A program made the translations under genes and the position numbers. A stretch of DNA of 64,000 bases from Tubiluchus corallicola (taxonomy: Eukaryota; Animalia; Priapulida), in the NCBI GenBank assembly GCA_030141605.1, contig JAQGDQ010000061.1:1-64000 (forward strand), written 5' to 3'. Positions 7,713 to 63,859 of this stretch are shown piece by piece. The notes under the pieces were generated by a model that was not told the DNA's origin, searched no databases, and worked only from the letters and a program-made list of their open reading frames with translations. Each line of letters begins with the position of its first letter. The first letter of the stretch is position 1.

Positions 7713-9310
7713 TAATTAACATTTTTGATAAGTAGTATAGATTAATTAGTATTTTTGCTTATTTCTGCAGGAATAAAAGTGAAACTATGTAGTTATAACA
7801 AACGTAATTATGGAAAGTCTAATCCAGATTTTTTTAGTGAAGTTAAGCAATTTGTGCATGAAAGTACAGAAACTCGTAAGTCATATTGTAACTTAATGCT
7901 GTTTTCATACATGTATTGCAATACTTATAATACACCACTAAAAGCTGAGTATTTATTAATTATGGTAAAACAATAATGTTTAATTATCTCCAAATTATCC
8001 GAATTGGCTCTTTATATTTTACTTGTAATGGTTAGAGAAAACGTCAATTAACTTTTCATTATTTAAAATAATGATTTAGGGCCTAACCAAGCAAGTATAC
8101 GGGACATTGAATTAAATTTGCAAAAAAATAAAAGTGGGCATGGAATCTACATCAATTAAGAAGCTTACAGCCAATACCTAGCTCTCCTATATAAAATGTG
8201 CTTTGTCTGACGCACTTCTTGCAGTGTCAACAGACGTGGCAGCATTGATGAGAGGTCTGAACGTAAAGCACAGCCTTGCCCACGTGTCGGTTAATGATGA
8301 CTAACATATCTCATATTTAACAGTGTAACAACGAAAGTTCATGCATTTCGACTAATAGTGTTGCAGTTTTTTCAAGATCTGCAACAGTGTTCACAAACGG
8401 AAATTAATGGGCAGAAGATATCTTAGTGGATTACATCACTTTTTTATATAATTATTATCAAAAAGTGGCACTGCTATCATATTGCATTGAATCACAGAAC
8501 TGCTGGCAAACATCAACCAAAATTACGAGACTATTAAGACAGATTTAATCAATGGACTAAATCAATGGTTAAATTTTTGTGACATCCAGGTCAAAGGTTG
8601 AGAGTACTTAAGTACAACAATCACGTGACATTTGTGTAAAGCAAAACCAACTACCACATCACTTCAGTAACTTCAGTTGTTTTATGTAGACTTTAGTTAA
8701 TCATGCATTAGTCTGTGTAGAATGATTTACTGCTTTGGTCTTGCTTGGGAACAAGAAAAAATGAACTAGATAGGTTCTAGCTAGCTGTTACTATTACAAT
8801 AGTTTAGGTGCGAGGCATTGTCAAGTGTGCACAAATGCATTATCTGGTACACTTAACTTTTGACTTTTCCAGAATTATCATCAATGACTGGAACTATGTA
8901 AAGGCTTATTTTGTAGCGGATTTTGTCGAACAGCTACCAGAATATAGACTAGTATGCTGTGGATCAAAACATGTTGAATTGTTGATGCAAAACACTGATG
9001 CAATCGAACAATGCAAGATAAAAAGAACTATAGTTAAAGAACTGAGAGTGAGCAATCAGAAGTGATTAGCTAAAGTAAGACCATTGAATTTATTGTGATA
9101 CATTATTAGCGCCTTCTTACTTGCTGGAGTTGCCGTTTTTGATGAAAAATCTGCTTCAGGCCTACTGTCTAGCGTTTATCAGCAATATTAATTGTCATTT
9201 TGTCAGACATTTTTTCAGTAGTGTGACGGTCTGTCATGGTCGTACGACGTGCACAATTTGCGTGCTGAAAATGACGGTGTTGCAGCAAAAATATATCCGT
9301 AGTAACAAAC

Positions 9311-31000: not shown

Positions 31001-32194
31001 TCAGCTACAGACTTTCTTGTGTTCATAGCCAACTGCACTGGAAATGTCACGAAAGCCATCTCTTTTCAGCAAGTTGACTAATTCTTTCTTAATTGTCTCT
31101 GCCACTGGTGGCCCTTGGTATGCAAAAGCAGTGTATAATTGAATTAATGAAGCACCAGCTAGAATCTTCTCGTATGCGTCAGTTCCAGAGGCTACACCAC
31201 CAACACCAATAATTGGAATTTTACCCTCTGTCAGTTTGTACATGTCTCGTATTACCTGTGTTGATAGAGATTTTAACGGTTCTCCACTTAAACCACCAAT
31301 TTCATTCTTTTCAGGACTTTTTAATGACGACGGTCGAGTAACTGTGGTATTCGATATTATGAGTCCATCGACTCCGCTATCACGTTTCATAACAACTTCT
31401 GCAATATCCTTTTTGTCACTTTCTGTCAAGTCCGGAGCTATTTTTATCAATATTGGGGGCTTTCTTGTAGAGTTCAAATTATCTCGTTCCTTAGTAACAG
31501 CTTTTAACAGTTCTTGTAGTTGATTGCGCCTCTGCATTGATCTTAATCCTGGTGTGTTTGGACTAGATATATTAATCACCAAGTAGTTTGCAATTGTGCC
31601 AAATTTTCGTACACCTTTTACGTAATCATTTATAGGATCTACTGCTGTCTTGTTCTTTCCAAGATTTACACCAACTATTCCTTTCCTCTTAGAAGGTGAG
31701 ACTAACCTATATTTCAATCGAGAATAAACTGCTTCATGTCCATCACTGTTAAAACCATATCGATTGATAATCGCATTGTCGTTGTTTAGTCTAAATACGC
31801 GAGGTTTTGGATTGCCAGGCTGTGGGAGAGGTGTAATACTTCCAACTTCTACAAAGCCAAAACCAATCCCAATCATAGCATCGACTGCTTCGCCGTGTTT
31901 ATCGAATCCAGCTGCTAATCCGATGGGATTATCAAACTGCTGATCAAAAACTGTGCATTTCATTTCTTCAAAATGGTTCTGCTTAATTAGCGGCATTAAG
32001 CCACGTTTTGCCAGTTTAATAGCCCAAATATGTGCACTTTCAGGATCACAAATCTTTTGACCAAGTGGCATAATGACGTTTTTGTAAAACTTTGGATGAC
32101 CACTGACAGTAAGGCCTGTCCAGAATAGTACAGTTCCACTCGCCAAAACAACTGCGCCCTGCTTAATTTTCGCGGCATTTGAAATAACTGACAT
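31001..32194 (-). CDS. DHODH: Dihydroorotate dehydrogenase (quinone), class 2, mitochondrial; 397-aa single-exon ORF with a possible upstream in-frame exon at 32527-32407
   Basis: Contains an N-terminal TM helix, DPESAH, NPIGLAAGFDKHGE, GFGFVEVGSITPLPQPGNPKPRVFRL, INRYGFNS, VGVNLGKNK, catalytic NISSPNTPGLR, KIAPDL, NTT, GGLSG, IIGVGGV and GASLIQLYTA. Met at 32194 aligns with the start of animal DHODHs. Confidence 0.97.
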   Translation of the reverse strand: MSVISNAAKIKQGAVVLASGTVLFWTGLTVSGHPKFYKNVIMPLGQKICDPESAHIWAIKLAKRGLMPLIKQNHFEEMKCTVFDQQFDNPIGLAAGFDKHGEAVDAMIGIGFGFVEVGSITPLPQPGNPKPRVFRLNNDNAIINRYGFNSDGHEAVYSRLKYRLVSPSKRKGIVGVNLGKNKTAVDPINDYVKGVRKFGTIANYLVINISSPNTPGLRSMQRRNQLQELLKAVTKERDNLNSTRKPPILIKIAPDLTESDKKDIAEVVMKRDSGVDGLIISNTTVTRPSSLKSPEKNEIGGLSGEPLKSLSTQVIRDMYKLTEGKIPIIGVGGVASGTDAYEKILAGASLIQLYTAFAYQGPPVAETIKKELVNLLKRDGFRDISSAVGYEHKKVCS

Positions 32195-32894
32195 GTCTGC
32201 TGAGCGTAAAAAAATAAAATGCACGATATATAGTTGTTTTCAAATATAAAGTTCTGCTCATGTGCTAAAACCGCTGAAGATCAACGCGCTATCTCAATTC
32301 ACTGAAGCACCAGTGCTAGCCTGTAATCGATTGGCGATCGCAAAGCGTCTCTAGCTCCATCTCGTGATGTAAACTATGACGAACGTGATTATATGTATGA
32401 ACTTACCCGAGACTCTGAATCTGCCCGTTTGCTTTTTCATCAATTTGTCATTTTCTTCATTTCGTTCCTTCTTGTAAACTGGAATTTCTCCTAAGATGTC
32501 AGTTTGCTCGCCATTTCGATTACGCATTGTAAAATAATTCCTCAGAATAAGAATAAGAAAATGTCGCGGGAGACAGCGGTGTAGGAGAAAGGGTAGCGAA
32601 GGACATTAAATCTACTACCCTTAATCCGACTCGTACTGATTCAATGAAACAGATTGATTAAAGCATAATGAAAGTCAAAAACAAAGCAATATTTTTGTAA
32701 GCAACGTTTTATGCTGTAAATTTCCTTTTACGTGTAACTGTTACGCACAGCTTGTAGCCATTAACAATGAATCCAAACAATGCACTACTAATAAACATCT
32801 TAACTCCAAATGATCGCAAATGTGGAGTTTGGAAATCTGGCGAGAAAATTAAAAAACTTGGAGATTTTTTAACACAAAGTAATTAGAAATATGC

Positions 32895-33075
32895 AATATG
32901 AAAATTTCATTTTATAATCCCTTACCTACTTCTTTGTCTAAAAACTGTAATTGTTGCAAAAAAACTTATACTTTCAAACTCAATTAGAAGCTCGTGGAAG
33001 CAGACATTTTACTTGCCATTCTTTCTGTTTTTAAGCCCAGCTCATCCTTTGCAAGAGCCATCTACTGGATTTAAT
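32895..33075 (+). mobile_element. Interspersed repeat family A, copy 2
   Basis: TTTTATAATCCC..ACCTACTTC...TTTCAAACTC...GCTCGTGGAAGCAG...CATCTACTGGATTTAA, matching 52690-52850. Confidence 0.65.
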
Positions 33076-33631
33076 CTGTTTTCTAAACCAACAATTCATT
33101 TTTGTTGTACTGATTCCTTGCTTATGACATGCCTTGTGGACTTAGTTTGAGTATCATTATCTGGAGAACTGGAGGGAGCCAAGTTTCCTTTTACTCTGGT
33201 GCCTAGAAATTCTCCTGGATTAATGGTATGATAATGTAACATGAAAACAGATTCAACAGATGTATTAATGCTGTTAATTCTATTTACTGCGAGAAAGCAA
33301 ATGTGTATCATGAGACTGTGAGAGGTCTAAAATATGGAAGACTTACCATAAAGTCATCACACCCTTAATGGTAAGAACAATATCACTGATACATTAAATT
33401 CCACAATAAATTTTTATTAAAAGGAACGTTTTTACCAGTTAATTAAAAATGCCTTTGTTGTTGGATTTTATGTATCCGGCCTTACCAATTTTTGGGTGTA
33501 ACAAGAAAAATATTTACTACTATTATTATTCATAATCACAAAAATTTGTAACAATCAATACTTTTATTTAAACTACTCGGCATACATCTGAACAACCGTC
33601 ACAAATTGGGTATTTTAATCATGCACCAATA

Positions 33632-36600
33632 CTACCGCTTCAACACATTAACGAAGGCATCACGTGGTATCTCGACATTTCCAATGCTTTTCATTCTTTT
33701 CTTGCCCTCTGTCTGTCGACGCAATAATTTCATTTTTCTTGTGACATCACCACCATACTATAAAGTAATATAAAAACGAATAAGCTGCTCAATAACAAAA
33801 AGTTGCAAAACAATCATGAGACCTATTAATGTTAAATTATTAAAGCCAACGTCACTTTCCCAAACAGTAGGCAGCTACAGAGTTAAATATTTCGTTCTGT
33901 AACTTTTTCTGCAATACTGTGAAAATGTTTATGTAATGCAAGTTTTTTGATGTACTACCATACTTTCCCATCTCAGCCGCCATACACTATATTATGCAAT
34001 ATTTTTAGGTTAGGATGAGGTTACTGTTTAGGCGTGTGCTTAGTGACCAAAGTTAAGCAATGCAGAGACTCGTAAGTGAATGACTGGGTAACCAATGGGT
34101 TCAATACTCGTTTTGGGTTGCTTTGCCAGCCTGGTGTTTGATTTTACAGGATTATGCTTATAAGTTCTGGTTCCCGTTACTTGATGGAAACCTGTCTAAA
34201 TCTTGCTAAATCACAGTGTGCAAAGTATCATACTGTCCAAACTGGGATAATAGTACAATGAGAAAATACACGCTGCCATCTGCAACTGCTGAATAAAATT
34301 AAAATTCTACACTCACATTTTGCACATATCCAGTGTTTCCAAGTTTGAGGTTATACACATGATGATATGACACAACTAATAAGTGCTTTTGTTACCAATA
34401 TTCTAGGATGCACATCTTAAAAAGGGTTAGCAGGGCGTCTCACAGAACCTGAATATAGTTGTTGCTGTAGTACATGACATTCTGCTTCGTAAAAAATGCT
34501 TTTAAATGACTTTCTTTAATCTTTATTCTTCGCTTGTAGCATAAACAACTGTACAAAATTAAGCACCATGCATGCCGCTTCAATCTGCCTTTGTACAGGA
34601 TACAAGCAATAACTGAATTGATTTAATAAAATACTCAAAGCTGGTACATTGATGTGACACAAGTTATTCTCCAATCATGCACAGCAAGTATGCATCACAC
34701 TTATTATTAAAGGTTAGATTATTCAGGGTAGCTCAGAAATTACAAATAAGTTCATTATTATACACGTATGGTGGAGCTTTAAAACTGTGAGTCATTCAAT
34801 GAATTCATACAAACAAATTGCTGAGTACTCTGTGTTTGAATGCCGATGTTAGTCTAAAACAGTAAGCAGGTGAATCTTTTCATCATGTTACGTTGTATTA
34901 CACACACAATCCTAGGCTGATGGTGTCCTGTTTTGAGGCTAAGAATAAGGAACCACTGTTTAAGGTTGTCAGTGTCACAATAAATAAAATAATCCCAGTT
35001 AGTATCACATATTCGTTTGTTTTATTATTTTTTATTCGCTATGGTCCTCTACGTTTTCGCACTGTTTAAATACAGTCAACCTCGGGTATAAGGTACTCGC
35101 TTTTATGGGACCACCAACACCGGCCCCGATTTTTCGTATTGTTTTTCCTATGTAAAAATCTTCGTATATAAGGTACTCGGATATAAGGGACTTTCGGTAA
35201 TAAGGGACGATATCTTCAGGTCCCGCGTAATAGAAACCCAGGTAAATTACCTCACATATAAGGGACCCTATGATCAAAGCGAAATTGATCGATTTTAAAC
35301 CTCAATTTTTCGCAAACTTAGCCTTCGAACAGCTCAGTTTCCGCGGTCACATACATCTCGCATCACTGAAGGAGCTTCCTACATACCGTTTGCACTGAAC
35401 GTGTAGCAATAATCCATAAAAATATGGAAAAAGTAAAAGTAAAGAAAAGTACAGGTCTAGATACACCCTCGGTCTGACTCAATTTTGGATATAAGGGAGG
35501 GTTTATTCCGGTCCCGAGGTGTCTCTTATATCCAAGGTTGACTGTATTCTCATTTATTATCTTATTTATCAATTTTCCTGTATAAGCAAACTGAACAAAG
35601 CAGAACACTCAGCACTATGCACTCGCCAGTCTTCAGCTGCGTGCCTGCTGTTGTAAGTACTGGACAAAAATCTTCAGGTTTAATCAGAAAGACTGCTAAA
35701 AATTTAAAGTTTTGCACAATTAAAAACTTAAGAAAGTTTTTACATCATGTGCTTATATTTTGAGAAGAGTGTGAAGTAGTTTGGTGACATTTGAAAGGCG
35801 GGATATTATAGTTATAAAGTTGTAATAATTTTGCCCACATTAAATTAGTGTTATGAATGAAAACTAGCTATAATTTACTTTGCAAAATCTGCAAATTGTT
35901 TTGTCTTGACTACTTGAAAAAGCTACATTATTTAGCTGTAAGTTACTGTCACAGCAAAATGTCATTCATTTAGATGAATCATAAACAGAAATGCAATCTT
36001 TTATCAGCTGTTAAAGATTATTCTGGAAGAATCACGTTTCAGAGAGTGAGCTGGTATCTGCTCTTCAAGCATCCAGTGTGAAGCCTATACCTGTACATTG
36101 AGGGAAATTCTCATTAACGTGAATTTATAAAATAACAATTTAGTATATCATGGGCAGTGCGTGTTATGGGCTACAAGTCTGGACCAATGTAAACACTACA
36201 ACACAAGTATAAATAAACACTTAAAACTTACAAGTTTAGCAGTGACATTTTTCTTTAGAGCTTTGACATTTTCACGCACAATTGGTTTGATCCCATCTCC
36301 TATGACAGCTTGTATGGACACTTCAAAGAGTTGTCGAGGTACTGCGTCACGAAGTTTCTCACATATCCGCCTCGCAATCAGCCGCGCACTTTCAGCGTGG
36401 ACGATGTGAGTCAGTTCCTCAACGTCTCTGCCATTTATCAGTATCCGTAACTGCAATATTCAAGTTAACTTTAGGGTAAGTTTCCACAAATGTATTACTT
36501 GCCCGAAAATTCTGCACGATTTGGCACAGAGAAGATATTTCTTTACACAGAGTAAGTACAAAAATAGTAATATACGTACCTTAAACTCGGTATAAAGGAA

Positions 36601-39600
36601 AACCGAGCCCAGTCTAAAACTGTAGGTCAAACAACATATTCTTTAAAATTTTGAAAGAGAACATACTATTCTTATAAAAAATGATTTACGTGAAATAATT
36701 ATTACCACGCAAATGCAATTTTAAATTTGCGCAAGCTGTTCTTTGCTGTTACATGCATTTTGCCATCCATTAGTTAGATGGGCACTAGCACCTGCATTAG
36801 AAATACATTGGATAAAAAGAAATACTGTACCTCTCAGTTCAGAGGTGTTAGTTTGTGAGACAGTGCACAAGTTCGACAGCTCATGCGAGAGCACAGCGGT
36901 AAATTTGAAATTTGAATTTTTATCTTGAAACTTGCCGAGTTTTAGCATATTTCCCTGAATCTCTTACAGTAGCACTGTACTTCAGTCTTCGTTTTTTTCG
37001 CAAACATGTTTTTCGCATGGAATGTTTGTGCTGTTAAAAATTGTGTTCATTTGTGATGTCGTCAATAGTTATTAGGTTAACATACAGCATAAATACCTTA
37101 ACTAAGTTAGCCTGTTGGTAACCATCATCCTCATAGTCGAAACTGCAATTACAATAAATTTATATATAGATAACGACGATATCGAAGTAACGAAAACCTA
37201 ACAAAGTATACCATAACGAAAGTCTAGAAACCCCTAACAACCAGATTTAAAACAACAAAAATCTGAATCTGGATTAGCATGATGTTCAATAACGTTATAA
37301 AAATGAAAATGTTGCGGCGAAATTCTTGATCTAGAGCTGTTGACCTTAAGGTCCATTCACACGTTACTCTAAACTACACGAAATGAAATGGATAAACTAA
37401 ATTTAAATTCACTATAAAATTATACTTATTTTAAACTGGATGTGCAGCATCGTCTGACCTGAAAATCTTGCAAGGGCTATACAGATAAACATACATGTCT
37501 ATTTGTTATTGTAAGTAAAATTATCTCTACCTGGCATATCCAGATGTCATAGTTTTCAGTTCATCGTAGAAGTCAATAATGACTTCACTTAATGGCATAG
37601 AAAATTTAACCATGACACGCTTGTTGTCAATGTATGAGAATGAAGTTTGCTCTCCTCTTCGTTCCTGTAAAAAGAAAGCAAACAATTTTACTTAGATTTG
37701 ATTAAATTTCGTTTTTCGCCGTACTTATTTCGCAAAATGAATGAATATACATGCACGCCGTCTCTGTTTTTATTTGTTGTTGATTATAAATGATAAGACT
37801 AAAGGGCTATCTAATTTGCCAATTGGCCCAAATAACCCTAAAATAAATTCAGTATTATCACTATTAAGGACTGTTGTACCTTTTTTACACCTAGGCAAAG
37901 AGGAATGCAAGCTGTCATTCCTGCACGCCTAAATGAGTTAAACAGTACTTTTACGGGTGAGGTAATTAGCTGAATGATCATTGTGTATGCTCCATCTGCT
38001 GTGGCTTTTTGTTACTTCAAGTTATTTATCTCAATGACAAATACCTATCCAAACATGCAAAACCAAGCAATTGCAAAATTTAAGTGTAGAAATCACACAA
38101 CCAAGGATGCTTTTTATAAGAATTAAAGTGTAAAACCATTTAATTTAATTGAAAATATAAGAGATATTTTCTTACCATACAAGCTGATGAGACTACATTA
38201 ATATGATCCGCTGGACACAAAATAGTGCCAGAAACCATTGGCTCATACTTTTCAACAATGATAGATTCGTCCGGATACTAAAAATATATATAAAAATTAA
38301 GAAACCAATTGCATTGCACTGTATTTTAAATAGGGAAGCTGAATGTAATTGAAAATAATCTTTAAAAGAGATGGATAGCAAAAAGTAACAGAAATATAAA
38401 ACTGTGATGTACACAGAAAGAAGCATACACTGCAATTCTGTGCTTTACACCATTAGTCACACTACTATCAAGCTAGAACAAGCAATTAATACAAACACTT
38501 GCTCCATCAGCTGGTAACAATTAAGTTCCTATAAATTCTCAAAAAATGGTGGATAAAGTGATTTAAGCAGTCAATAACTAAAAAATAAACTTTTAAAAAA
38601 CACCCCAATCTATTCCCAAAAAGGAAAATATTGCAATGTTAAAAATTCTTCTAATAAATTAAGGCTACTGAAGTAAACTTACCTCACAAGGATTGACTAT
38701 AGTAATTATTTCACTCCCATGTTTCTTTATGTTTTTTTCTCCTTTAATTTTAACTGAAAAAAATAAAGAGATATTGTAGACTTTGTAATGACAGACATTG
38801 TAATTGTAACTACAAACCAAAAATCATTGACAGGTACTACATATTTAATGCATAAAATCCCTCAACTATATTTTTAAGAATTCTGCTACATTTACTAAAG
38901 CACAGCTACACAGAGCATAGAGTAGTTATAAATATGTACGGATAAAAGGTATGTACACCTATATTAATTACATTTGTTTTTGAAGACCAAACTCAATGTT
39001 TGGTACCAAAAAAGTGCTTCAACTCAACTTTTAAACATTTTCCTTGACTTTCTGGTAATGCTAAAAAACATATTACTTTAATGCAACAGCTTTGCAAGTA
39101 AATAATAATTTTATTTCCACTTCTAAAAACATCATAGTTACAGAATTGATAAAATTGAGTAAAAAGGAACAGTGAAGTAAAAGAGTAAATTGTATATACA
39201 TAAAAATAATTTCCATACATTTATAAGGTACACTAGGTGCAGTGACTATCACAGACGTGCTGTATTCCTGTTCAAGTCTTTGGTTAAAAACGTCCATGTG
39301 TAACAATCCCAGAAAGCCTATGCGAAAACCTTGACCCAGGGCTGGACTGCAACAAATCAATAATTAATTAAATATCATCAACCAGTACTTAATGACTAAC
39401 TACTTAAAAAGAAAATTGTTACTCTAACTGAATACACTGCAAGTTTAGCTGCTATGTGCTGTGACAAAGTTACAAATTATAAAGCAAACGCCTATACGTG
39501 TTGGACAGAACTTTATTTTACTACTGCTAAATCCGTTTATCATCACAGGTGCTACTGATTAATAGGCAACTGGATAGCTGAATTTCAAGTAATAATTTCA

Positions 39601-42600
39601 ATAAGAAACTTATATAGCCATAAATTATATCACACTACAAGTGCAAATGTTCAACTGAAAATAGAAGGCAGATGTAACAATCCTCAGAATTAAACAAAAT
39701 TGTTTCAATGTATTTTCACTTGTAAATTTCTGAGCTAATTAGTCCATGAAATCTACATAAAAACACCAAAATAGATGGGAGTCTAGGTTTTTTCGCACTA
39801 TGTCGTTTTTAAGAATCACATGTAAACGTATTATAGGTTTTATACATATATACAGTAATACCTCCGTTGTCGACCGTCTCCGTACTCGTACAAATCGGTT
39901 TTCAACCAGAAATTGTCTCTGCTCTCGACCAACCACCAAACACGTGATGAACACATGTGCGCAGAGCCAAACATAACCGACCGCGCCCGAGAGTAGCCAC
40001 GCACAACATTTGAATCACCTAACATCGCTAAGTGTTTTCTCCGCTTTTTTCATGCAGGAATAATTATGTTTTTCTTTCTAAGTAATTCTATTATGTTTTT
40101 GTTATCAATTATATCATATCTACTATTTAGATATTTGCATTATTATATTTCGTTTTAGTAATACTTTACAGTTCATTTGGTGCTTGAGAACGGGTTATTT
40201 GCTTTTACATTATAGCTTATGGGAATAAATGATTCGGTACTCAACCAAATCGGTTTTCAAACACTTTTTAGGAACGAATTATGGTCAAAAACAGAGATAC
40301 TACTGTAAATATATATATTTACACAACACATGCAAAAACTTCAATCTATGAGCTACGGGAGTTCATAATATATACAATTTCCACTAGAAAAGGTCACAGT
40401 TAAACACAACCAATAGAGAATTAAAATTTCTACTTAGCAAACACAAAGTAAAAGGAGCTAGGGCATTTCCCCATCTAACTTCAAAGTTATGGATATAATA
40501 AATTAACTATAAGTAAGTCAGCAAATGGTATGTGTCTTTAGGGTGTGCAAAAAACTACAAATTCATTTAATAATACAATCATTAAATTTAAAAAACAATA
40601 AAATACATAATTCTGCAAAATAGCTTTCTTACCTGCTATCCATCGTCATAGTTACACTAGAATCATTTAGAGTGAGCCGAGATATGGCACTACGTAAAGT
40701 TGGAAATTCTGTTTGGTCTATTGGATACATGCCAGCAAACACCTAAACAGAAATCAAAAAACCTTCATAGATAAACAGGTAAAAGAATTTATAGAATAAT
40801 AGTCAGTACATATGTAATAAATGAATAGAAAAGTATATGATGGTTAAGTAATTTCCAAGCTGTAAGTATGTAATGTTCAATTACATTTTGTCATATTAAT
40901 GTAAGACTGTTGTCATTTAATAATGAACAAATGAGAAATGAGAAATCTCTCATCACATGACAGTACACTACAGTAAGTTCTCAGTAATGTAATGAAGCAT
41001 ACTGCTGTCAACTAAGAGCTGATGGAAATTAGTTATATCTCTAATTAAATCTAACAGGACACGGACTTTTAGAATCAAATCGTCACTTATCAGGCAGCAA
41101 GCCTCACTGTCTGTACAATAGAAAAGCACAATAGAAAATTTGATAACTTATAGCCATTGCTTGAAATTGGTACCTTCTCCTACCATAGGTTTTGCTGGTT
41201 TGAATCCAGGTAGTACATCAACAGAGGCACCATGACTATAGAACGTGTCTCCAATTCTGGCTTCTGCCGTGTTTTTCATTGAGGCCATGACAAATCCAAC
41301 TTGACCAGCATACCTATAGAAATTGTACTGAATTACATTTTGATAAAAATGTTCAACTATCTTAAGGTAAGCTGCATGAGGACACGAACACGAAATTAAC
41401 GTAAACAAATTTTAGTGTTTTAGCTTCCAAGCTTATTACCTTATAATTTAATTCTTATAATGAAACACTACACTAATGAAAGGATAAAATCTAAGCCTAA
41501 CAACACTGTACAACTTGAGTTCACAGATCCTCCAACCATCAGCATCATCAAAAACAATCTAAGGGCAATTAAACAAAGCAACAAAAATTGTTATTATAAC
41601 TAGGAAAGACCTACAACATACTTTTGAAGGTCACAACTGTGTAAAACCTGTACCATCACACAAGATAGTATTAGGTTTACTGACCAATTATTAATAATGC
41701 AGAATTATTCCGTGTCTTGTGTGTGCAGAAATTAACTGATGATGTGACAAGCACCATGTAAGTGTTCTGTACTGTTGTACTAGTAAGAAATTGGAATGCT
41801 GAATTATGCTATCTGCATTTGTTCTAGCAATGGTCTTTTTTTAAAAAAAATTACCTTTTTTCTTTTGATGGTATGTTGCTTTTTTAAGTTACTCAAAATA
41901 ATTTTGGGAAAACAATTTTTTCTGGCAGTTGTTTGTGCATAAACACTGCCAAAACCAGAGTTGAAAGTGATGGTTTTTCTTCCTACTTCTTTTAATAAAT
42001 ACTTCTACTTCTTTTAATAACTTTTAATAAAATAGTAAACACGCAATGAACAATGGGAAACCCGTGTAAACTTTTTGATACATTCCACTACCCACGTGGT
42101 GTTAAATAGTTGAGAAATTAGGGGAAAATAGGCAAATATATATTTTAAAAGAGTTACAGGCTAGGAAAACACTGTGCAAGAATTTCTGGTGTGATTCACC
42201 CTTCCATTTAGTACTGTTGCTTAGCAGTGGTCACTAACACACATCATACTGCATTTTTACATGTAAATGTTAATCATTTTAATGTTTTGTTTCATATGTT
42301 ATTTTAAAATGTTAGGCACAATAACTTACAAAGCTGATACTGTTTCTTCATTTGGTCGGAGAATACCCAAATGCTGCACTTCGTAGCTCTTTTTAGAGTG
42401 TGCCGAGGTGAATTTCTCTCCGGTCCTCAATGTACCGTCGATGATTGCAATGTTTGCTACCACACCCCGATATCGATCAAACCAGGAATCAAATACCAAT
42501 GCCCTAAATGGTTTGTGGGGGTCTGATGTTGACCTTCGTGAAACAGAAATGCAAAATTAATCATATGATTGTTCAAGTTCCCAAAGGCAGCAGGCCATAC

Positions 42601-45085: not shown

Positions 45086-45144
<59 letters not shown>

Positions 45145-52900: not shown

Positions 52901-55900
52901 TTTGTAGAAACGCGACAAAAGACATTGGCCAACGTTGACAGCAAATTTCTCAAGATTATGTTTTTCACTGCATACAGTGCACCTCAACTTCAACGTAAAA
53001 TATCTCAGCTTAGAAATAACGTAGAGTGATGAGCTTGGTATCGAAACAATCCTCATGAAATGGGGATTCAGGGATGTTTTTGCTATACAAGCACACATAA
53101 ATACATGTGCTACGAGTTAGTTAGTAGTTTGCTAAACTGAAAACGGTGATGCGAGTTAGATTTAATTATGCAAATGATCAAATTGGTATTTGTTACTTTA
53201 GCAAAGTATGTTAAAATAATATTTTGCTTTAACTATGCCGACATTGCATATTTTATATGCTGTTTTGAGTAGCTGAATCACTGACTTGCAGAAAACATTG
53301 CATCTTGCAGTTAATATGCAAGAAGTACAACCAATTTGTTTTTAGATAAAATTGTAATAGTTACTATTTTACTAGGTATTGACACAAGAGCACTAACTAA
53401 AAAGATCAGAAAATGTGGCACAATGCTTGGCAAGATCATCACTGATGGAACTGACCCTAGTCTCATTGCTTTTGATGATCCTAATAAACGTTTACTAGTT
53501 AATGAAGTTTCTATAAAAGTAGGTACAGTATTGCATTCTGCCAGACATGTGATGCAGTACATATAGGGCAAGAATTTTTGTTTGTTGTTTTGTGATGAGT
53601 TGAGAAAACAGAGTTGTGCCTTGTGTTGAGAGAATTGTCATCAGTAGATCTTAAGGTATGTGTGATTCTGTGGTGGGTGACAGATAGATTTGAGAGCTTA
53701 TATATGGCTCAGTAGAAAGTCAGTAAACAAACATTTTTGTGATCAGCAGAATTATAATGGAAACGCAAGGATGAATCTTATACTGGGAGTTAGTACCGTT
53801 TACTTTCCTTTATCAACTACTAAATAAAAATGTAAAAAATTACTTTCAGCAAGACCATAATAGGTCTGAGTTATTGAACTGTATACAATGTTATAATGTT
53901 AAGAGTTTATTTGTTTGCAGTTTATATTATTTCCATTTTGTTTCCACTTAAATATAATTTCAGGCTCCTATTGTGTATAACACTGATGGAGATGTAAAAA
54001 TAACAGCAGTTGACTGCGGGATTAAATACAATCAGATACGTTGTTTGACTGATCGTGGAGCATGTGTTACTGTTGTTCCTTGGAATTATCCCTTGCAAAG
54101 TACAGGTGAAGTTCATTGTGTTTTTAACTTTTTAACATTTTGTGACTTGTAGTACTCCAGATTTCTTATAGGCAAGATACTTTTGATTAAAAGTAATTTC
54201 TCAAAGTACACAGAAATTCAAACTTCTCATTAAATTCTCATGTCTACTTTTTAAAGTATTGTAATTTCTAAAGAATGTCTTATGTTTTAAGCTTTTTATA
54301 AGTGGCGTAGGTTAGGAAGTGTTTTGTTTTTATAGATTATGATGGACTTTTCTTAAGCAATGGCCCTGGCAACCCGGCAATGTGTAAGGAAGTAATAGCG
54401 CATCTTATGACGCTTATTGCTGAAGAAAAGTGTAAGCCCATATTTGGTATCTGTCTTGGACACCAGTTGCTGTCATTGGCTGCAGGAGCAGACACATGCA
54501 AAATGAAGTAAATGTCAATTAATTATAATCTTAATATTATCTTAATAATATATTGAAAAGGGGGAAATGTGAAAAGTTGGAGCACAGCATGGATTTGAAC
54601 CACAGAACTTCTCCTTACAAGGCAGATGATCACTAGACACCTCATTCTCCAGTGACTGTGAAAGTCCAAAGTTTATTCCTTATATTCCATTGGCCAACCA
54701 ATTCAGCATTTCCAATGTTAGACAACCCAAGCTAGAGTGATTCTAACTAATAAGATCATTTTTGCACAAATTTGCTGTCACAATCGCTATTAAATGCAGT
54801 AGTCATGGCATCTGCCTTGTAAACAGAAAGTCCTTGGTTCAAATTCAGGCTGTGTTCCATCTTTTATGTATTATCTGTTCTTAAAGTTTGGTTTCAAATT
54901 GAATTAATCATAAATTTGTACCATCACGAATTGTTAATATTTATGCCGCCTGTTTCACATTCGTGTTGTTGTTTTTTGTAGTGTTGACCATTCAGGGAGC
55001 GGTGTAGTGCATATTAAATTTGTTATTACTTTAAATAATAAACGTTTTTGAACTGTGATTCAAACATATTAATTTTCAAAGGTATGGTAATCGAGGCCAC
55101 AACCAACCGTGCACTCACCATGGCACCGATCGCTGTTTCATCACCATGCAGAATCACGGCTTTGCTGTTCAGCCCGCATCCCTGTCAGATGCTTGGATGC
55201 CGTTGTTTACCAATGCAAATGATGGCAGTAATGAAGGCATTATTCATCGAACAAAGCCATTTTTCAGGTACGTTTCAGTGAGGCTTAAATTATTTACTGG
55301 ATGGCTACTTATTGGTATAACAAATTCAGTGGCGTTTTGTGGGGTGTGCGGACCGGGCAGGGCAGCCAATACTTTCTTTACTAACGCCGGCAACAAAACG
55401 CTTCTGTTTCCATCTAATCGCTCATGTAATTTACTTTTATTGCAGACACGTTCAGGAATTTTATATTTTTTTGCTCATATACTTACCTAGTACCTTTATA
55501 TAGGAGCGTATTTTTTAGTTTAAAATGTAGAACACGATAATTATTATAACATTGTTGTTTTGGCGAAGGCGTAGTCATGTTTGTCCACACCTAATTCTCG
55601 ACATTTCTCATGAGACTGGTGTTTCGTGATCTTCTTGATTTGATTGCAAACTTTGGTTTATATGAATAAATATCTTTCATATATGTGTGTGTTTGTAATA
55701 GTCCAAGGTGTGTTACGTTTAAGGAAGGAGGAGCTAATTTGGCTACAGTACAGGGCGGTCAAACCCTTCACTACGCCACTGTAGAAATTGTACATTTCTT
55801 TGGAAAAGTAGCGTTTTATGCCTTGTTTTTCTTGTCTGGTTACTGTTTGGTGTTGATGCTTCTTTTTTTTCAGTGTACAATTTCATCCAGAGCATATGGC

Positions 55901-58900
55901 AGGTCCCAGAGATCTGGAGAACTTATTCACTGTTTTCATTACAAGTGTTCGTCAATGGAAGAGTGGAAAAACAGAGTAAGAGTTTTACCTTTGTACTGCT
56001 CTTAGTCATTCCCATTAAGAAGTTAGCTTTAAGTTATATTAATGAGAATTTTAAAAGTTTACATTCATTTGTACATTTTTGGTTATGATTTCAAGATGTT
56101 GCTGTTGATTGAATAATGTGGTGTAGTGCTTAGTACTTTTTTGAATGACTTTGCTGTGACTAGTCTGTCCAGATCTGTTTAAGGCTTCACTTCAGCTAGC
56201 TTGACTGTGTGTGTTAATATAAAGCTCGATTATAACAACAGGCTTTGTTTTGACTAGTACTGGATGCTCTTTTTTGTTTTACAAGCAAGTTAATAGGTTT
56301 TTAATGAATTCACCTAATGTACCATCTTATGTGTATGTTTGTATTGATAATTAATGCAGTGTAATTAATTACGTTGTAGTTTCACAATGCCAGATGTGAT
56401 AACACGAGAGTTGAAGTCAAAATGCCAGATGGAGCAACCTCGTGAGAAGCCAAAGAAAATCTTGATCTTAGGATCGGGTGGCTTGTCAATTGGTCAAGCT
56501 GGGGAATTTGACTACTCTGGCTCTCAGGTATGGAGATTTTTTGTGGGGGTTAGTAGTTGGGTTTTTGTGCAAATTGGCTTTATTGCTATTCTATAGCAAT
56601 AACGAAGTTCTCTTGGCAGAGTAGCGTTTTGAAAACCCACAGCTTTTCGTTGAGTTTTTAGAGATCTTTTATTAACAAAAATGATTTTGTGTTATTTTTG
56701 TTTTTAAATTTTGTATTTTGAGCTATCAATAATTTTACTTTTTCGGCTTATGTACATCTTTTGTAAAAGAAAAATGACTACCTTAGTCGGCCTAAACTGA
56801 AGCTGCTTGAACATTGTATTACATTTCTATTATGTAACTGTCTCAATTATTTTACGTCCCTTATATTTCATTTTGCAAAAAATGACGTACTTATGTACAA
56901 AATGTTTAAAAATTCCTGCTGTTAATAGTGAGCCCCTTTATTATCTAACTGATGCAGTTAGTACAATTTCAGGCTCTTAAAGCACTAAGGGAGGAACACA
57001 TAGAAACTGTACTTATCAACTCCAACATTGCTACTGTCCAGACTTCAAAAGGGATGTCAGATAAGACGTACTTCTTACCTATAACTCCAGAATACGTGAA
57101 GAAGGTATTATATATCATATTCTATTCTGATTCTTTGCAAATGAGACTATACTGGTATAATGTAGTGGAACTGATGCATATCTATATATGGAATACATTG
57201 TGATACAGATTGTTTTAACTGTTCAGGCATTTAATACTTTGTGTTTTATAAGTTAGAATATGATTTTCAACTAAAGGTGTACTAAACTCAAAACACAGAG
57301 TACATAAGAATGTATTTTCTGAATATAACTTCTAGTGTGCAGTGGAAACATTAGATTTTCCTAATGAAAATTAACAAAATTTATCATATAGTCGGTTGTT
57401 TATAAAACGGATATTGTTTTAGTTGAAAAATTTCAAAACTTTAATTTTACGTATTCGGACTTTTTGCACTTTTGCATTTTTGTCGGAAGTAACAGTTCAG
57501 TATAGTTATGCTTGTGTAATTAAATAAATTAAGAACATCTTTTTATTAGGTTATACGTCATGAAAGGCCAGATGGAATTTTACTGACCTTTGGAGGTCAA
57601 ACAGCACTGAATTGTGGTGTTCAACTGTTTGAGGAAGGGATATTTTCAAAGTTTAATGTTTGTGTTCTTGGTACACCTATTCAGTCTATAATTAACTCTG
57701 AAGACAGGAAAATTTTTGCTGAGAAAATGGAGGAAATAAAAGAACAGGTGGCTCCCTCAATAGCTGCACATTCAATTGCTGAGGTACCTTTAATGTTTTT
57801 TCTCTTTTTAATGTATGAAATTTTTTGCTGAAAATCAATATTTGAATTTGCGACTTTTTTGTTTTTACTATTTCTTAAGTAGTTTTTTAGTCTGAAGGTG
57901 GTGTCTGTCTGTTTTCTGTTTTCCTTCTGGTAAGCCATCCAGGACCAAAGTTTAGATATTTGTCCCAGATAGCGAGTAAACCATTGATAAGTCTTGTAAC
58001 TACAGATTGCACATGTATGCAGCTAATCTTCTCATGTCTGGGAGGCTGTAACGTTTCAGTCTATTTTTGGCTGACTATTTTTCCTAGTGCGTTTAGTAGC
58101 ATAACGTCAGATATGTCTTAGTGCTGTGAATTGTCTTTGCTAACAAAAATTGTCGCATGTTATTTGAACAAATGAATCGAAGTAAAGGACAAAATGGTAA
58201 AAGTTGGATAAAGTTGTCAAATGGCTGTTTTTGTGAGTGAAGCTGATTACGATCTTGTTTTTTGTACCAGAATGCAATTTCAATACCAGTTTTTGCATCT
58301 CTCCCCGCTAAGTGGAAACTTTACTTGACACGTGTTTTCACACTTCACATAAAAAAATCACCATGTACTGTATAAATTTTAGGCAACCGAAGCAGCTGCT
58401 AAATTGGGCTACCCGGTTATGATTCGGGCTGCTTTTGCTCTTGGTGGCCTTGGTTCTGGATTTGCTGACAATGAAGACCAACTTTTAGCTTTAGCACACA
58501 CAGCATTCGCTCACACTAATCAGGTATGTTGTTCACTGAAGTTTTCTTTTTTTAGAGTCTGCCTAAACTGGGAACATGAACAGAATTCAAATTGTGTAAT
58601 AAGAAACTAGTTTAATTCCAACATTTTTTATGCTTAGGTTTTGGTAGATAAATCTCTGAGAGGGTGGAAAGAAGTTGAATATGAAGTCGTGCGTGATGCT
58701 TACGATAATTGTATTACGGTAAGAATTCTTTTTCTATGTTACAGTTTTTTGAAATGTTAACATACAATAATAGAAATTTGATTATAACTCAGTTGATGTA
58801 ATTGTTATGATTGTAAGAAATTATTTTTTGTGCAATTTAAATGTAGTTGTTCTCAGACTTTGCATGGAAACCATTTTCCAAATTTTTGAACAAGATTTTT

Positions 58901-61900
58901 GCGTGGCATCTTAGCAAGTATTTTAAAACTGACTGGAAAAATCTCTTCTTGTGATCTTAGAAAATAAAAAGCATTCACTTTTAAGTTTTATATAATATTA
59001 GGTGTGTTTTTTTAGCAGTCTTACCATTTTTACTTGAATATTATAATGTTTTTTCATAGCTTTCATATTTGTATAGAAATGTATTACTTGAATCAGAATT
59101 TCGATAATTTAGTTATGCATTACTCAAACTAATAAATTACAAATTGTAATGAGTCATAATTAAATACATTATACCATCATTTATAAAACATTTTCAAATA
59201 TTTTCAGGTTTGCAACATGGAGAATGTTGATCCGCTTGGTATACACACAGGTGAGTCGATTGTCGTTGCACCTAGCCAGACGCTCACAAACATCGAGTAC
59301 AACATGCTGCGCTTGACGGCTATCAAAGTCGTGCGCCACCTGGGTGTAGTAGGTGAATGTAACATTCAGTATGCATTGGATCCTGATTCACATCAGGTAA
59401 ACTGAAATAAATACTATTATTTTTGGATTTTCCTTAGTTTCACATGTGCATGTTAGCTTGAAAAACTAGATAAAATGTATCTAAAATTGCATGTATATAT
59501 GTATGTATGTATTTCAGTAACAGGTTTACTTAAACCACAAGATAATACTCTTCATAAATAAAACATAAAAAAAAATCTTCTTGAAATTTTGTGTCGCTTA
59601 TGTGCTGTTTTACTGCACACAGAGTTTGAATTAGCAGCAATGCAGTAAATTTAAACTTCAACGATGACTGTTAAGTGCAGCCATTTTGACTGTAGGCCGT
59701 TTGAAACAAGTTGAAATAACATTGCGTAAAATTTGCAAAAATAATCAGAGCCTTCATAGCGCATACTTTGCTAACTAAGCAAAAGTGTAAATTGTATCTT
59801 GTTGATACGTTTAAAAAGTTTGATAGGTTTAAAAATACGTTTTTTGGTGTGTGATTGGTGCACACTGGGAAGGTGAGTCAGTCATATTTTACCAGTCGGG
59901 CAAACATTTTAAGTGATTAAGAATTCACTTTTCTAGTTACATAAGTCTTTTAAGCAGGTAAGCATATTGCAAAATAATATAACTTTGCATGTAAGTTTTT
60001 TCAGGACACATTTTAAAATTGCCTTTCCTTCCCCATTAACGTAAATGTTTGCACCAGTGCTTGGTTCATTTTCAAGAACAACTTTCTAAGATGAGCCACT
60101 GAACTGGCAGAAGTGCCTAGCACATGTAGCGGTGTATGTACTTCCTGTATATACCATAAGTACCTTTATAATAAGATCTAACAAATTTACGCCATGTTCA
60201 GACTGGAGAATTTTCTTGCTATGAAACTTGCTAGTTTCTCCCCAAGAAAATTGTTTGTGTTCATGTCAGAGAGCAAAACCTGCTTGTAACAGTGTTCAGA
60301 CTGGGGAGAAATTATTCTCAATAGGTTTCTGAGAGAAAAGTGTCGAAAGTAACTCGTTCTGCTGTTCACACTAGTGAGTAAGTTCACCTTGTAGTAATTG
60401 TTCAAGAAAAACAGTTACAACCCGACAGTGACTCGCAAAGCAGGTTGTACCAGCAAGTTTGCTCTCAGCGAGAAACTCTCCATCCTGAACGAGGCGCAAC
60501 ATTTATCCGAACGTTGTCAAATTAACATTTTATTTTATCTCCATTGTTTAGTTTTGTTTCAGTAATTTTTATGTTTGTTAACTTACCATCCCTTTTAGTT
60601 TAGTATGTTTAATTAATCAAAAATAATTTTTCTTTTTGTAGTACTATATCATAGAAGTGAATGCAAGATTGTCCCGCAGTTCGGCACTTGCCAGTAAGGC
60701 AACTGGCTACCCATTAGCCTACATTGCTGCAAAGTTGGCACTTGGCATTCCATTACCAGTTCTGCACAATTCTGTGACGGGCTCGACAACAGCGTGCTTT
60801 GAGCCAAGCTTAGATTACTGTGTGGTGAAAATTCCAAGATGGGACCTAAGCAAATTCACTCGAGTTAGCACAAAGGTCGACTTTTCTTTTTTCTTTAAAT
60901 TTTATTCATTTTTATTTGTCTATAGATTTTGAGAACTTCTCAGAAAATATATTTGGTCCCCTGCAACTTCCTGTTTTTTTTCTTTCTGAATAATATTATG
61001 CTCTTAATGGAATATAGAATAGGATAAAAAAATATATTTATTATATTATATTATATCTGTATATTAAAAATAAAATACACAGAAACTATTAAAAATCCGG
61101 CAGATTACTGTACATTAAACCAAGATTATGTAGAAATCAAATAATAATAATAACGCAGATTAAAACTTAAATACATAAAAAGCATGATACATACATGCTA
61201 CTTCCATTATGCTAATATAAAAGCAAAATCACAAAAAAAAAATACACAGAAACTATTAAAAATCTGGCAGATTACTATACATTAAACCGGCAGATTACTA
61301 TCCATTAAACCGACAGATTACTATACATTAAACCAAGATTATGTAGAAATTAAATAATAATAACGCAGATTAAAACTTCTATGTAGTTTAAATCATTGAC
61401 TAATATCACACACAACAAAGCACTAATTAAGAAAGTACGAATGAAGATAAAAACTACCTATGTTCATATATTGTAAACTGCTAGTAATGTGACTTAAAAA
61501 ATAATGTAAAAATTGTAGAATTAAAAGATAGTGAATAGATAAAAAAGCATAAACAATTAGCGATGAAAATGTATAAACATTATGGATAAGATCAAATTTG
61601 TACAGTAAAGCTAAGACATAGTATAAACCTATAAGAAAAACTAAAAGGTAATCTAAAATCAAATATATGGTATTTTAAACCGCAATTGTAATCTTAAAAA
61701 ATTTATGGGATATATCTAAATTTGTTAATAATTTATTTATAACTAAGGTGACAGCTGTCTGTAAAGATTGGGGAAAATATGTGTTTTTATTTTGTCTCTT
61801 AAGTTTCTCTTGTTCAAATTCTGGATTGTTCAGTGTTTGATAAAAACAGTGAATAGAATAGTATTCCAGCAAGTTGATTATTTGTTAAGCGCTTTTGTAT

Positions 61901-63859
61901 TTTTAGTTAACCTTCATATATTTCTCATATTTATTCGCTTGCCCAATATTGGCTCTTAATGTTTCAGTTATTGTTACAGTAGAAATTTTACTATACAACT
62001 ATATCGTAATTTGTCGATGGAAGGAAAAATTAAGAACAGTTCATGTTTTTATAGTCACATTGTATACTTTATCTAATTTTGCCTATTAAGGACCATTTCT
62101 TTAGCAACCTTAAGTTGGAAGCATGCCAATACATACTGTATTAATGTTGTGCGCTTGTTTACTTTGACTTTTTTGACTGTTTAAACATTAGGGAAAATGT
62201 ATGTGTGACATTTACTGCATTTATTGGTAGAATGCAAACGACCTGAGTGCATCTTCCTGTTATTAAGATTAGTAATCTGTGCTGTTAATAAACAACATCA
62301 CAAACAACCTGTGTATGTGTACTAAATGTACAACCTGTAAACATTGTAGCTTTAAAACAAAAATATAATTATTTGAGTGTTTTTCCATCTCAATGCCTAT
62401 AAGCGAAGGATTGAATCCACCTCAGCATTACTTACATAACTGTGCTTTTTATTGTTAGTGTGTGAATATTTATGTTTTTTTCTTATTTAGATTGGCAGTA
62501 GTATGAAAAGTGTTGGAGAAGTTATGGCGGTAGGCCGTAAATTTGAGGAAGCCATGCAAAAGGCACTTCGGATGGTCGATGAAAGTAACCTTGGATTCGA
62601 CCCGCACAAGAAATCTGTGTGTGAAAATGTATGTTATGAGAAGTGGCGTAGAAAGTGTTTTTTGTAAAAAAATGTAACTAAATCTTGTGTAGAAACTCTT
62701 CCATTTACTTGAAAAGTTTTTTTAGTTTAGCTGTTTAATTTTGCATGACGTGAAATTGTCAAAAATGCAAATTGATTTTGTGTTTGACGTGAACGTCTTT
62801 TTCTTTAAGGATACGCATTTTTAATGTGTTGTTTTGCATTGTTTCATATGGAACAAATTGCTTCAAACAACAATTGCTGTATGAAGTAACAAGGAATGTT
62901 AGGCTGGCCACAAAAAATGTTTGTTTTATGTCTTACCTCATGAGCTCAAAAGATGTCAATAGGGAGGAAGGAAGTTTTTTCAAAAAAAAATTAAAGTTTT
63001 GTGAATGTTTAAAGCTGAATCGTGGAATATATGAAATCAGTTGAAATCAAAGTTTGTTTATTTCCCACTGGTTAGCAGTAATATTTTAAATTTTTTCCAT
63101 GCACATAACGCGTTTTTTTAGTTTCATATTACTAAATTATCGTATAATCATCGATGATTGTATAGTCTCTTTTTTGTATCGTGAACGTATGTTTTGATAA
63201 TTATTGTATCAGAGGCAACAGTACTCGTCCGTTAATGAACCGATTTGACGGAAAATTCTATACTTTTTAGCCTCCAGTACAATAAGCATCATACAAACAG
63301 CAACCATGGCCGAGAGTTAGCCGTGGAAAAACATAGCTGCATTCCCCGAAAGAACAATGTTATAATGATTATTGCATTTTATGTTTTAAATTTAAAAAAA
63401 TACGCTTTTATATGACAGCGTCAAATAAGTATATGAACATACAAAAAAATTATAAAATTCCCCGTCCAGTGTGGAGTAAAAAAAAATATTACCAAGGCGA
63501 TTAGACGGAAACAGAAGTATTTTTATTGTCGGCCTTTGTTGGTGTTTGTCGATATAATATGATTAGTTTAAATATGTAGACTTTAGCACTGTCAAGATTA
63601 TACCATGCTTGAGTTGCTCTTAAAGAAATGTTCAGCTTATTTTATCACTTGCTTATAAAAGTTTTGTGTTCCAAAGGAGTTAAAAGAGCCGACCGACAAG
63701 AGAATATTTGTAGTTGCTGCTGCTCTCATGGCTGGCTACAGCGTCAACAAGCTGTACGATTTGACCAAAATTGACCGTTGGTTTCTCTACAAATTTGAGA
63801 ACATCATTCGCTGTTACAGACAGTTGGAAAACTTAAAGGGACAGGATCTTCAAAGAGAG
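49946..63859 (+). CDS. CAD: CAD / glutamine-dependent carbamoyl-phosphate synthetase II: GATase domain and first part of the CPS large subunit; 16 exons, 3' end beyond the window
   Basis: Exons 49946-50033, 52186-52455, 53376-53518, 53964-54105, 54336-54507, 55082-55267, 55874-55975, 56380-56527, 56973-57104, 57550-57783, 58383-58523, 58638-58718, 59208-59396, 60642-60875, 62491-62628 and 63677-63859 join in phase. Motifs: [47 protein letters not shown] (catalytic Cys), [85 protein letters not shown]. An in-frame stop just upstream of the ATG and no transit peptide favour cytosolic CAD over CPS1/CPSIII. DHOase and ATCase domains are not in the window. Confidence 0.93.
50170..50360. repeat. 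Compound (TA/TG/CA)n low-complexity microsatellite in CAD intron 1
   Basis: Runs of TATATG/TACA units; these explain the spurious ORFs 50186-50431 and 50188-50403. Confidence 0.85.
52640..52870 (+). mobile_element. Interspersed repeat family A, copy 3
   Basis: Matches 32895-33075 and the reverse complement of 270-530. Confidence 0.65.
54574..54865. pseudogene. Inverted pair of tRNA-Thr(UGU)-like pseudogenes / SINE heads
   Basis: The + copy (54795-54859) has anticodon arm TCTGC-CTTGTAA-ACAGA, T-arm GGTTCAAAT and ends CTGTGTTCCA. The - copy (54645-54578) has TCTGCCTTGTAAGGAGA..GGTTCAAATCC..CTGTGCTCCA. Acceptor stems do not pair. Confidence 0.6.
59678..60010 (+). mobile_element. Interspersed repeat family B, copy 2
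   Basis: Collinear with 43035-43350. Confidence 0.7.
60190..60496. mobile_element. PIF/Harbinger-type MITE
   Basis: TIRs CGCCATGTTCAGACTGGAGAATTTTCT ... AGAAACTCTCCATCCTGAACGAGGCG, with internal GTTCAGACT/GTTCACACT repeats. Confidence 0.7.
61072..61378. repeat. Tandem duplication (~170-bp period) with a 23-bp unit expanded from 1x to 3x in the second copy
   Basis: AAAATACACAGAAACTATTAAAAATC(C/T)GGCAGATTACT..ACATTAAACCAAGATTATGTAGAAAT..TAACGCAGATTAAAACTT occurs twice. The unit CCGGCAGATTACTATACATTAAA is present three times at 61264-61333. Confidence 0.85.

What the first reader, a model, noticed from the sequence alone, without database searches (positions are those of the whole stretch)
31001..63859. 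CAD and DHODH physically clustered: a candidate de novo pyrimidine gene cluster in an animal
Seen: DHODH (ATG 32194, minus) and CAD (ATG 49946, plus) are 17.8 kb apart, separated only by GUF1. GUF1 and DHODH are both transcribed away from CAD across one 3-kb divergent region. Established: CAD catalyses steps 1-3 and DHODH step 4 of UMP synthesis; in human they are unlinked (CAD chr2, DHODH chr16, UMPS chr3); pyr clusters are known from bacteria and trypanosomatids rather than animals. Inference: this may be a selected, co-regulated metabolic mini-cluster, possibly built by relocating DHODH next to CAD.
Basis: partly seen in the sequence, partly recalled or inferred. Interest (0 to 1): 0.8.

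Follow-up and report, generated by a model that had tools for sequence, protein, structure and literature searches.

The report
Pyrimidine genes as likely chance neighbours
In a priapulid worm, the gene for step 4 of pyrimidine synthesis (DHODH) has no coding introns and lies 18 kb from a gene predicted to be CAD (steps 1-3), a linkage not seen in other animals checked; it is likely a chance result of gene relocation rather than a co-regulated cluster.

Summary
The genes are real. DHODH (31001-32194, minus) is one intact 397-codon frame. GUF1 (16 exons, minus) and the first 860 codons of a CAD-type gene (16 exons, plus) splice cleanly with canonical sites. CAD's DHOase and ATCase exons would lie beyond the window and were not seen. 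The DHODH tree places the animal with Priapulus (100/99).

The linkage is derived: CAD and DHODH share a contig in 0 of 22 other animal species (19 chromosome-scale). In Priapulus, DHODH and its neighbour here, PLXDC, are on different scaffolds; Priapulus CAD was not found, so the decisive test is open.

Co-regulation has no support. DHODH starts 14.7 kb from GUF1's start, behind GUF1's poly(A) signals, and has its own CpG peak. Its upstream DNA shares no excess words with CAD's. No UMPS was recognised in the window, and the 3-kb gap may hold another gene.

One specified pair this close is rare (about 2 in 10,000), but 0.07-0.27 such pairs per genome are expected over an assumed 500-1,000 enzyme pairs. 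Best reading: relocated, intron-stripped DHODH, incidentally near CAD.

The parts
31001..32194 (-). DHODH (class 2, mitochondrial type), coding region without introns, 397 aa plus stop
   Evidence: family motifs present; groups with Priapulus DHODH 100/99; contigs of X1 and X2 cover parts
32201..32600 (-). CpG-rich stretch upstream of DHODH, predicted own promoter/5' region; strong donor after 32407, weak acceptor before 32199 (predicted 5' intron)
   Evidence: 22 CpG in 400 nt against a window median of 6; only a high-copy repeat at 35001 has more; donor 10.4 bits, acceptor under 4 bits. No transcript evidence.
33418..33568 (-). two AATAAA signals behind the GUF1 stop, predicted GUF1 3' end
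   Evidence: not shown by reads
33632..46903 (-). GUF1 (mitochondrial LepA/EF4), 16 exons, 667 aa
   Evidence: last intron joined in an X2 contig
46904..49945 (.). 3,043-nt divergent gap between GUF1 and CAD; holds a high-copy repeat near 47430-47830 and CpG-rich stretches at about 47200-47900 and 48400-49100
48736..49032 (-). exon-like 297-nt piece of a possible unrecognised gene or pseudogene inside the gap
   Evidence: acceptor 6.0, donor 8.2 bits; lies in a 157-codon frame, longest of 47 intron-null frames 101 codons; no Pfam, PDB or Atlas hit; model pLDDT 40.6
49946..63859 (+). CAD-type gene, first 16 exons (glutaminase and CPS-A, 860 aa); runs off the window
   Evidence: 64-72% identical to 127 full-length CADs, starts at their residue 1, VFQTG motif, GICLGHQ cysteine kept
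14986..27265 (+). PLXDC (plexin domain-containing) gene, tail-to-tail neighbour of DHODH; used as synteny marker
   Evidence: eight stretches match Priapulus XP_014675133.1; range is that of the tblastn matches

Best explanation
An intron-free DHODH gene lies two genes from a predicted CAD gene in a priapulid genome, likely because a reverse-transcribed copy or a later rearrangement placed it among housekeeping genes, and it is likely run from its own promoter with the nearness to CAD incidental. Shown: three intact genes, no coding introns in DHODH, no linkage in 22 other animals. Inferred: RNA-mediated intron loss, relocation of DHODH rather than of CAD, separate promoters, absence of selection on the linkage. 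The proteins would work as in any animal (established knowledge; PMC6022934 passage): cytosolic CAD makes dihydroorotate and DHODH oxidises it to orotate, which needs no linkage.
For: CAD and DHODH on different contigs in 22 of 22 species present in both hit lists, 19 with both contigs over 10 Mb; for 8 of the 22 both accessions were checked and belong to one RefSeq series. DHODH has 0 coding introns against 30 in 4.6 kb of neighbouring coding DNA (expected 7.8, Poisson P 4 x 10^-4). CpG peak directly upstream of DHODH; GUF1 poly(A) signals in between. Shared 8-, 9- and 10-mers between DHODH and CAD upstream DNA are at background (80, 26, 8 against means 88.0, 27.8, 7.7; P 0.65, 0.59, 0.50). 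Priapulus DHODH (548,136-bp scaffold) and PLXDC (104,824-bp scaffold) are apart. The other neighbours (TAMM41, PLXDC, GUF1) are not pyrimidine genes. Expected chance pairs per genome 0.07-0.27 for an assumed 500-1,000 consecutive-enzyme pairs, 0.4-1.3 if housekeeping genes cluster.
Against: For this pathway alone the prior chance is only 4-8 x 10^-4 per genome, and the pair is exactly steps 1-3 and step 4. The number of enzyme pairs in the multiple-testing sum is my assumption. Priapulus CAD and GUF1 were not retrieved (absent from the 120 rows listed in each), so conservation in priapulids is untested, and the Priapulus assembly is fragmented enough for a scaffold break to hide linkage. No poly(A) relic was seen behind DHODH, and intron loss in place would look the same as retroposition. 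No expression data. Word counts would miss a shared distal enhancer.
Confidence: 0.68

Rival explanations
1. Selected mini-cluster: DHODH moved next to CAD in the priapulid lineage and the linkage is kept because both genes share a regulatory domain, coordinating steps 1-4 of UMP synthesis.
For: Low per-pathway chance; derived linkage; precedents for linked nucleotide-synthesis genes: PPAT-PAICS, 70 bp apart and conserved (PMC2871058 Table 2), and the trypanosomatid pyr cluster (PMC5803862 passage); new neighbourhoods can become constrained (PMC13508932 passages).
Against: Not head-to-head; 17.8 kb and at least one unrelated gene between; no shared upstream words or listed motifs; UMPS not recognised in the window (ORF list; no dedicated UMPS search); DHODH-PLXDC linkage not seen in Priapulus.
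Confidence: 0.2
2. GUF1-DHODH is one transcription unit (operon-like or read-through), so the divergent CAD/GUF1 promoter would drive DHODH as well.
For: Same strand, 1,438 nt stop-to-start; an AG-ending pyrimidine-rich stretch lies 5 nt before the DHODH ATG; both products are predicted mitochondrial.
Against: Two AATAAA signals end GUF1, a repeat lies in the gap, and a CpG peak and a strong cis donor precede DHODH. No contig joins the two genes (the run is sparse, so this is no proof). One search listed no paper on spliced leaders in priapulids (2 chaetognath papers, listing only).
Confidence: 0.07
3. The plus-strand gene is not a full CAD (a CPS III, or a truncated copy), or the linkage is an assembly join.
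For: DHOase and ATCase exons are outside the window; invertebrates also have CPS III (PMC6022934 passage); no listed contig spans the region; no genome was held.
Against: No transit peptide: the start aligns with residue 1 of CADs (median offset 2 over 127), while exon 2 starts at residue 72 in human CPS1 against 30 here; VFQTG as in 126 of 127 CADs, VFNTG in CPS1. Three intact genes with no N and even composition.
Confidence: 0.05

Closest known systems
PPAT-PAICS (GPAT/AIRC) divergent pair of de novo purine synthesis (PMC2871058, Table 2 and reference list seen)
   Same: Two genes of one nucleotide-synthesis pathway close together in an animal genome, on opposite strands and pointing apart.
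   Different: PPAT-PAICS are 70 bp apart on one bidirectional promoter and conserved across species; here 17.8 kb, a 13-kb gene between, and no conservation found.
Trypanosomatid pyr cluster, pyr1-pyr3-pyr6/5-pyr2-pyr4 (PMC5803862, section 4 passage)
   Same: Pyrimidine steps 1-4 linked in a eukaryote.
   Different: All six activities, separate genes, conserved among trypanosomatids, with a soluble DHODH of bacterial origin (PMC7052976 passage). Here a fused CAD, a class 2 DHODH, no UMPS recognised, one species.
Relocated intron-free housekeeping genes (retrogenes that replace the parent; general knowledge, recalled)
   Same: Intact coding frame without introns among intron-rich neighbours, new chromosomal setting, predicted 5' exon.
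   Different: No poly(A) relic seen; the parent locus and whether a second DHODH copy exists could not be checked.
Dictyostelium pyr1-3 and pyr4 (recalled as neighbours; from no call)
   Same: Would be the same CAD plus DHODH pairing in a eukaryote.
   Different: Unverified: one search listed one paper, and its passages do not mention it. A lead only.

Membership tests
CAD (CPS II-DHOase-ATCase) | Glutaminase fused to CPS, catalytic cysteine kept | tested here: met
   One open frame across glutaminase and CPS-A; GICLGHQ at 252, QFHPE at 336
CAD (CPS II-DHOase-ATCase) | No mitochondrial transit peptide; closer to CAD than to CPS1 | tested here: met
   Start offset median 2 against 127 full-length CADs, 64-72% identity, VFQTG in 126 of 127; CPS1 has VFNTG and about 42 more N-terminal residues. 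No CPS III sequence was compared.
CAD (CPS II-DHOase-ATCase) | DHOase and ATCase domains in the same gene | not testable with these tools
   Window ends in PF02787; no genome held
Class 2 DHODH | DHO_dh domain with N-terminal membrane/quinone extension and conserved family motifs | tested here: met
   PF01180 79-376; aligns end to end with named animal DHODHs, 122 invariant columns; 8 of 8 recalled motifs found
Selected metabolic gene cluster or pair (PPAT-PAICS or pyr type) | Genes of consecutive steps physically close | tested here: met
   17,752 nt ATG to ATG
Selected metabolic gene cluster or pair (PPAT-PAICS or pyr type) | Linkage conserved across distant animals | tested here: not met
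   0 of 22 species share a contig: molluscs, one nemertean, two sharks; no ecdysozoan among them
Selected metabolic gene cluster or pair (PPAT-PAICS or pyr type) | Linkage conserved within the lineage (priapulids) | tested here: inconclusive
   Priapulus CAD not retrieved; DHODH and PLXDC on different scaffolds of a fragmented assembly
Selected metabolic gene cluster or pair (PPAT-PAICS or pyr type) | Shared promoter or shared cis-elements | tested here: not met
   Not head-to-head; shared k-mers at background; no E-box, E2F, DRE, NRF1, ETS or GC box (recalled motifs) in either 800-nt upstream region. Sequence test only.
Selected metabolic gene cluster or pair (PPAT-PAICS or pyr type) | Co-expression above neighbour background | not testable with these tools
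   Only contigs of two runs were available
Retrogene | Coding introns absent | tested here: met
   0 against 7.8 expected
Retrogene | Poly(A) relic, target-site duplication, or intron-bearing parent elsewhere | tested here: inconclusive
   No A-run seen by eye in 410 nt behind the stop; duplications not searched; parent locus not searchable

The most novel reading that the evidence does not exclude
Priapulids assembled a pyrimidine mini-cluster from scratch: a reverse-transcribed DHODH was placed beside CAD, from a different ancestral chromosome, and the linkage has been kept across priapulid evolution because steps 1-4 of UMP synthesis share one regulatory domain. It would be the first CAD-DHODH linkage in an animal that my searches could find.
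Probability: 0.18. Interest if true: 0.62.

Novelty: new member of a known kind. Interest (0 to 1): 0.27.

Why it matters
As it stands: a tidy case of a housekeeping gene that lost its introns and changed neighbourhood in a little-studied phylum, and a warning that same-pathway neighbours turn up by chance in large scans. If a second, distant priapulid shows the same trio, it would be a rare datable example of an animal building a metabolic gene pair anew, comparable to PPAT-PAICS, and one look-up in a better assembly decides it.

Tried and rejected
Own-genome search for UMPS, the rest of CAD or a second DHODH: no genome held. Priapulus CAD: exon query reached only proteins up to 2,000 aa; the profile search listed 120 of 7,442 hits without it. 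Priapulus GUF1 was not searched. Metagenome scan with DHODH: 145 pattern matches, none confirmed. Sequencing runs: no RNA holder listed; X1 covers introns and may be the source sample, X2 gave 14 laid records; missing cover is not used as evidence. Text search for accession numbers next to Priapulus DHODH: 0 papers. Literature for a CAD-DHODH linkage in animals: 7 listed; 1; 0; 5; 4; none showed one in its listing, and passages read in PMC7052976, PMC6245113, PMC10167481 and PMC6022934 did not either; subscription papers are not covered. The stable-pair tables of PMC13508932 were too large to read and could bear on the claim. Frames in the 3-kb gap: no usable Pfam, PDB or Atlas hit; the single-sequence model was too poor for a fold search; recalled resemblances to fasciclin and deaminase motifs got no support and were dropped. 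The sigma-70 scan does not apply to an animal and was ignored. My first hand-read CAD exon list was off by a few bases and was replaced. A tunicate origin was considered and rejected.
Full report
Observation. The window is AT-rich animal DNA without N; no genome was held. DHODH is a single frame, 32194 to 31001 on the minus strand, 397 residues, matching PF01180 and aligning end to end with named animal DHODHs. GUF1 has 16 exons from 46903 to 33632 and 667 residues; one contig of run X2, whose RNA nature is a guess, joins its last two exons. The plus-strand gene from 49946 has 16 exons and 860 open codons with canonical splice sites.

Is it CAD? It begins where CADs begin (median offset 2 residues against 127 full-length proteins), is 64-72% identical to them, carries VFQTG like 126 of 127, and keeps the glutaminase cysteine. 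Human CPS1 has VFNTG and about 42 more residues in front. The window stops in the CPS oligomerisation domain, so DHOase and ATCase were not seen and no CPS III was compared. CAD is very likely, not shown in full.

Which animal? The best named DHODH hit is Priapulus caudatus at 60%, and a 38-row tree groups the window's protein with Priapulus and three unnamed proteins at 100/99. The best PLXDC match among 133 representatives is also Priapulus. Earlier notes on this genome had pointed the same way.

Is the linkage ancient? No synteny tool covers animals here, so I compared the contig lengths recorded for each protein. Twenty-two species had both a CAD and a DHODH with a contig length: 19 molluscs, one nemertean and two sharks. 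None shares a contig, and in 19 both contigs exceed 10 Mb. For 8 of the 22 both accessions were checked and fall in one RefSeq series thousands of numbers apart; the other 14 could mix assemblies. Species present in only one list, or without a contig length, were left out. The linkage is therefore derived relative to these groups; no other ecdysozoan was in the comparison.

Is it kept in priapulids? Priapulus CAD was not among the 120 rows listed or, and GUF1 was not searched. As a proxy I used DHODH's other neighbour. Priapulus DHODH lies on a 548,136-bp scaffold and PLXDC on a 104,824-bp scaffold. That is weak evidence of local reshuffling, since the assembly is fragmented, and it does not test CAD.

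How it got there. CAD and GUF1 carry 30 introns in 4.6 kb of coding DNA; at that rate DHODH would have about 7.8 and has none (Poisson P 4 x 10^-4). Several spiralian DHODHs have long and short isoforms that differ by an internal stretch of about 30 residues, and the priapulid-clade proteins match the short form. This fits copying through mRNA, either into a new site or over the old gene in place. No poly(A) relic was visible. A note on an intron-free CEP290 elsewhere in this genome suggests retrocopying occurs here; I did not test it. That DHODH moved, rather than CAD or a larger block, is inference.

Regulation. GUF1 is followed by AATAAA at 33568 and 33418 and a repeat. The 400 nt at 32201-32600 hold 22 CpG against a median of 6, exceeded only by a high-copy repeat, and there is a strong donor at 32407, although the matching acceptor scores weakly and a relative's protein reads through it. 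DHODH therefore likely has its own 5' end. Upstream DNA of DHODH and CAD shares 80, 26 and 8 words of 8, 9 and 10 letters against background means of 88.0, 27.8 and 7.7. This cannot exclude a shared distal enhancer. The 3-kb gap itself contains an exon-like piece on the minus strand (49032-48736) within a 157-codon frame, longer than any of 47 frames in 21.4 kb of introns (maximum 101), with four more strong donors nearby. It has no database match, so 'separated only by GUF1' is uncertain.

Chance. One named pair lies within two genes with probability 1.3-2.7 x 10^-4 for 30,000-15,000 genes, and 4-8 x 10^-4 for the three UMP-pathway pairs. But a scan would flag any two consecutive enzymes: with an assumed 500-1,000 such pairs, 0.07-0.27 are expected per genome, and 0.4-1.3 if housekeeping genes share neighbourhoods. 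The window is such a neighbourhood: TAMM41, DHODH, GUF1 and CAD.

Comparison. PPAT-PAICS is the animal precedent: 70 bp apart, divergent and conserved (PMC2871058, Table 2 passage). The trypanosomatid cluster holds all six activities and is conserved (PMC5803862, one passage). In C. elegans only three same-pathway pairs share an operon although pathway genes are co-expressed (PMC10167481, passages), so co-regulation does not need linkage. New neighbourhoods can arise by chromosome mixing and persist neutrally or by constraint (PMC13508932, passages; its tables could not be read). I found no report of CAD-DHODH linkage in an animal.

Verdict. The genes and the distance are real and the arrangement is derived. 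Nothing tested supports co-regulation or selection, and the one decisive comparison, a second priapulid, could not be made. Incidental neighbourhood 0.68; selected pair 0.20; GUF1-DHODH unit 0.07; not CAD or misassembly 0.05. Interest 0.27.

Noticed in passing
window 49032-48056, minus strand: Exon-like 297-nt piece, an in-frame 63-nt piece at 48581-48519 and five strong donors inside the GUF1-CAD gap: possible unrecognised gene, pseudogene or non-coding transcript head-to-head with CAD.
   Followed up: partly
window 32527-32407, minus strand: An upstream ATG in the predicted DHODH 5' exon is in frame after splicing and would add 42 charged residues before the conserved start (439 aa); could be an alternative, differently targeted form or untranslated.
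   Followed up: partly
window 1-6030, plus strand: 3' part of TAMM41 (PF09139), a third gene for a mitochondrial protein in the window beside DHODH and GUF1.
   Followed up: partly
window 17021-16638, minus strand: 128-codon frame inside a PLXDC intron on the opposite strand, protein-like, no Pfam hit.
   Followed up: partly
window 7221-12138, plus strand: Several 76-85-codon frames between TAMM41 and PLXDC that may be exons of an unrecognised gene; no Pfam hit for the three scanned.
   Followed up: partly
window 2445-3158, plus strand: 238-codon frame in a TAMM41 intron that looks like the end of a LINE-type element (recalled resemblance; no Pfam hit).
   Followed up: no
window 35000-35600, 36800-37070, 43000-43560, 47430-47830: High-copy repeats, with summed contig depth in the thousands in run X1.
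   Followed up: no
P0009/P0025, P0011/P0041, P0010/P0037 (alignment A2): Mollusc and nemertean DHODHs have long isoforms with a related insert of about 30 residues at one site; the five priapulid-clade proteins lack it.
   Followed up: partly
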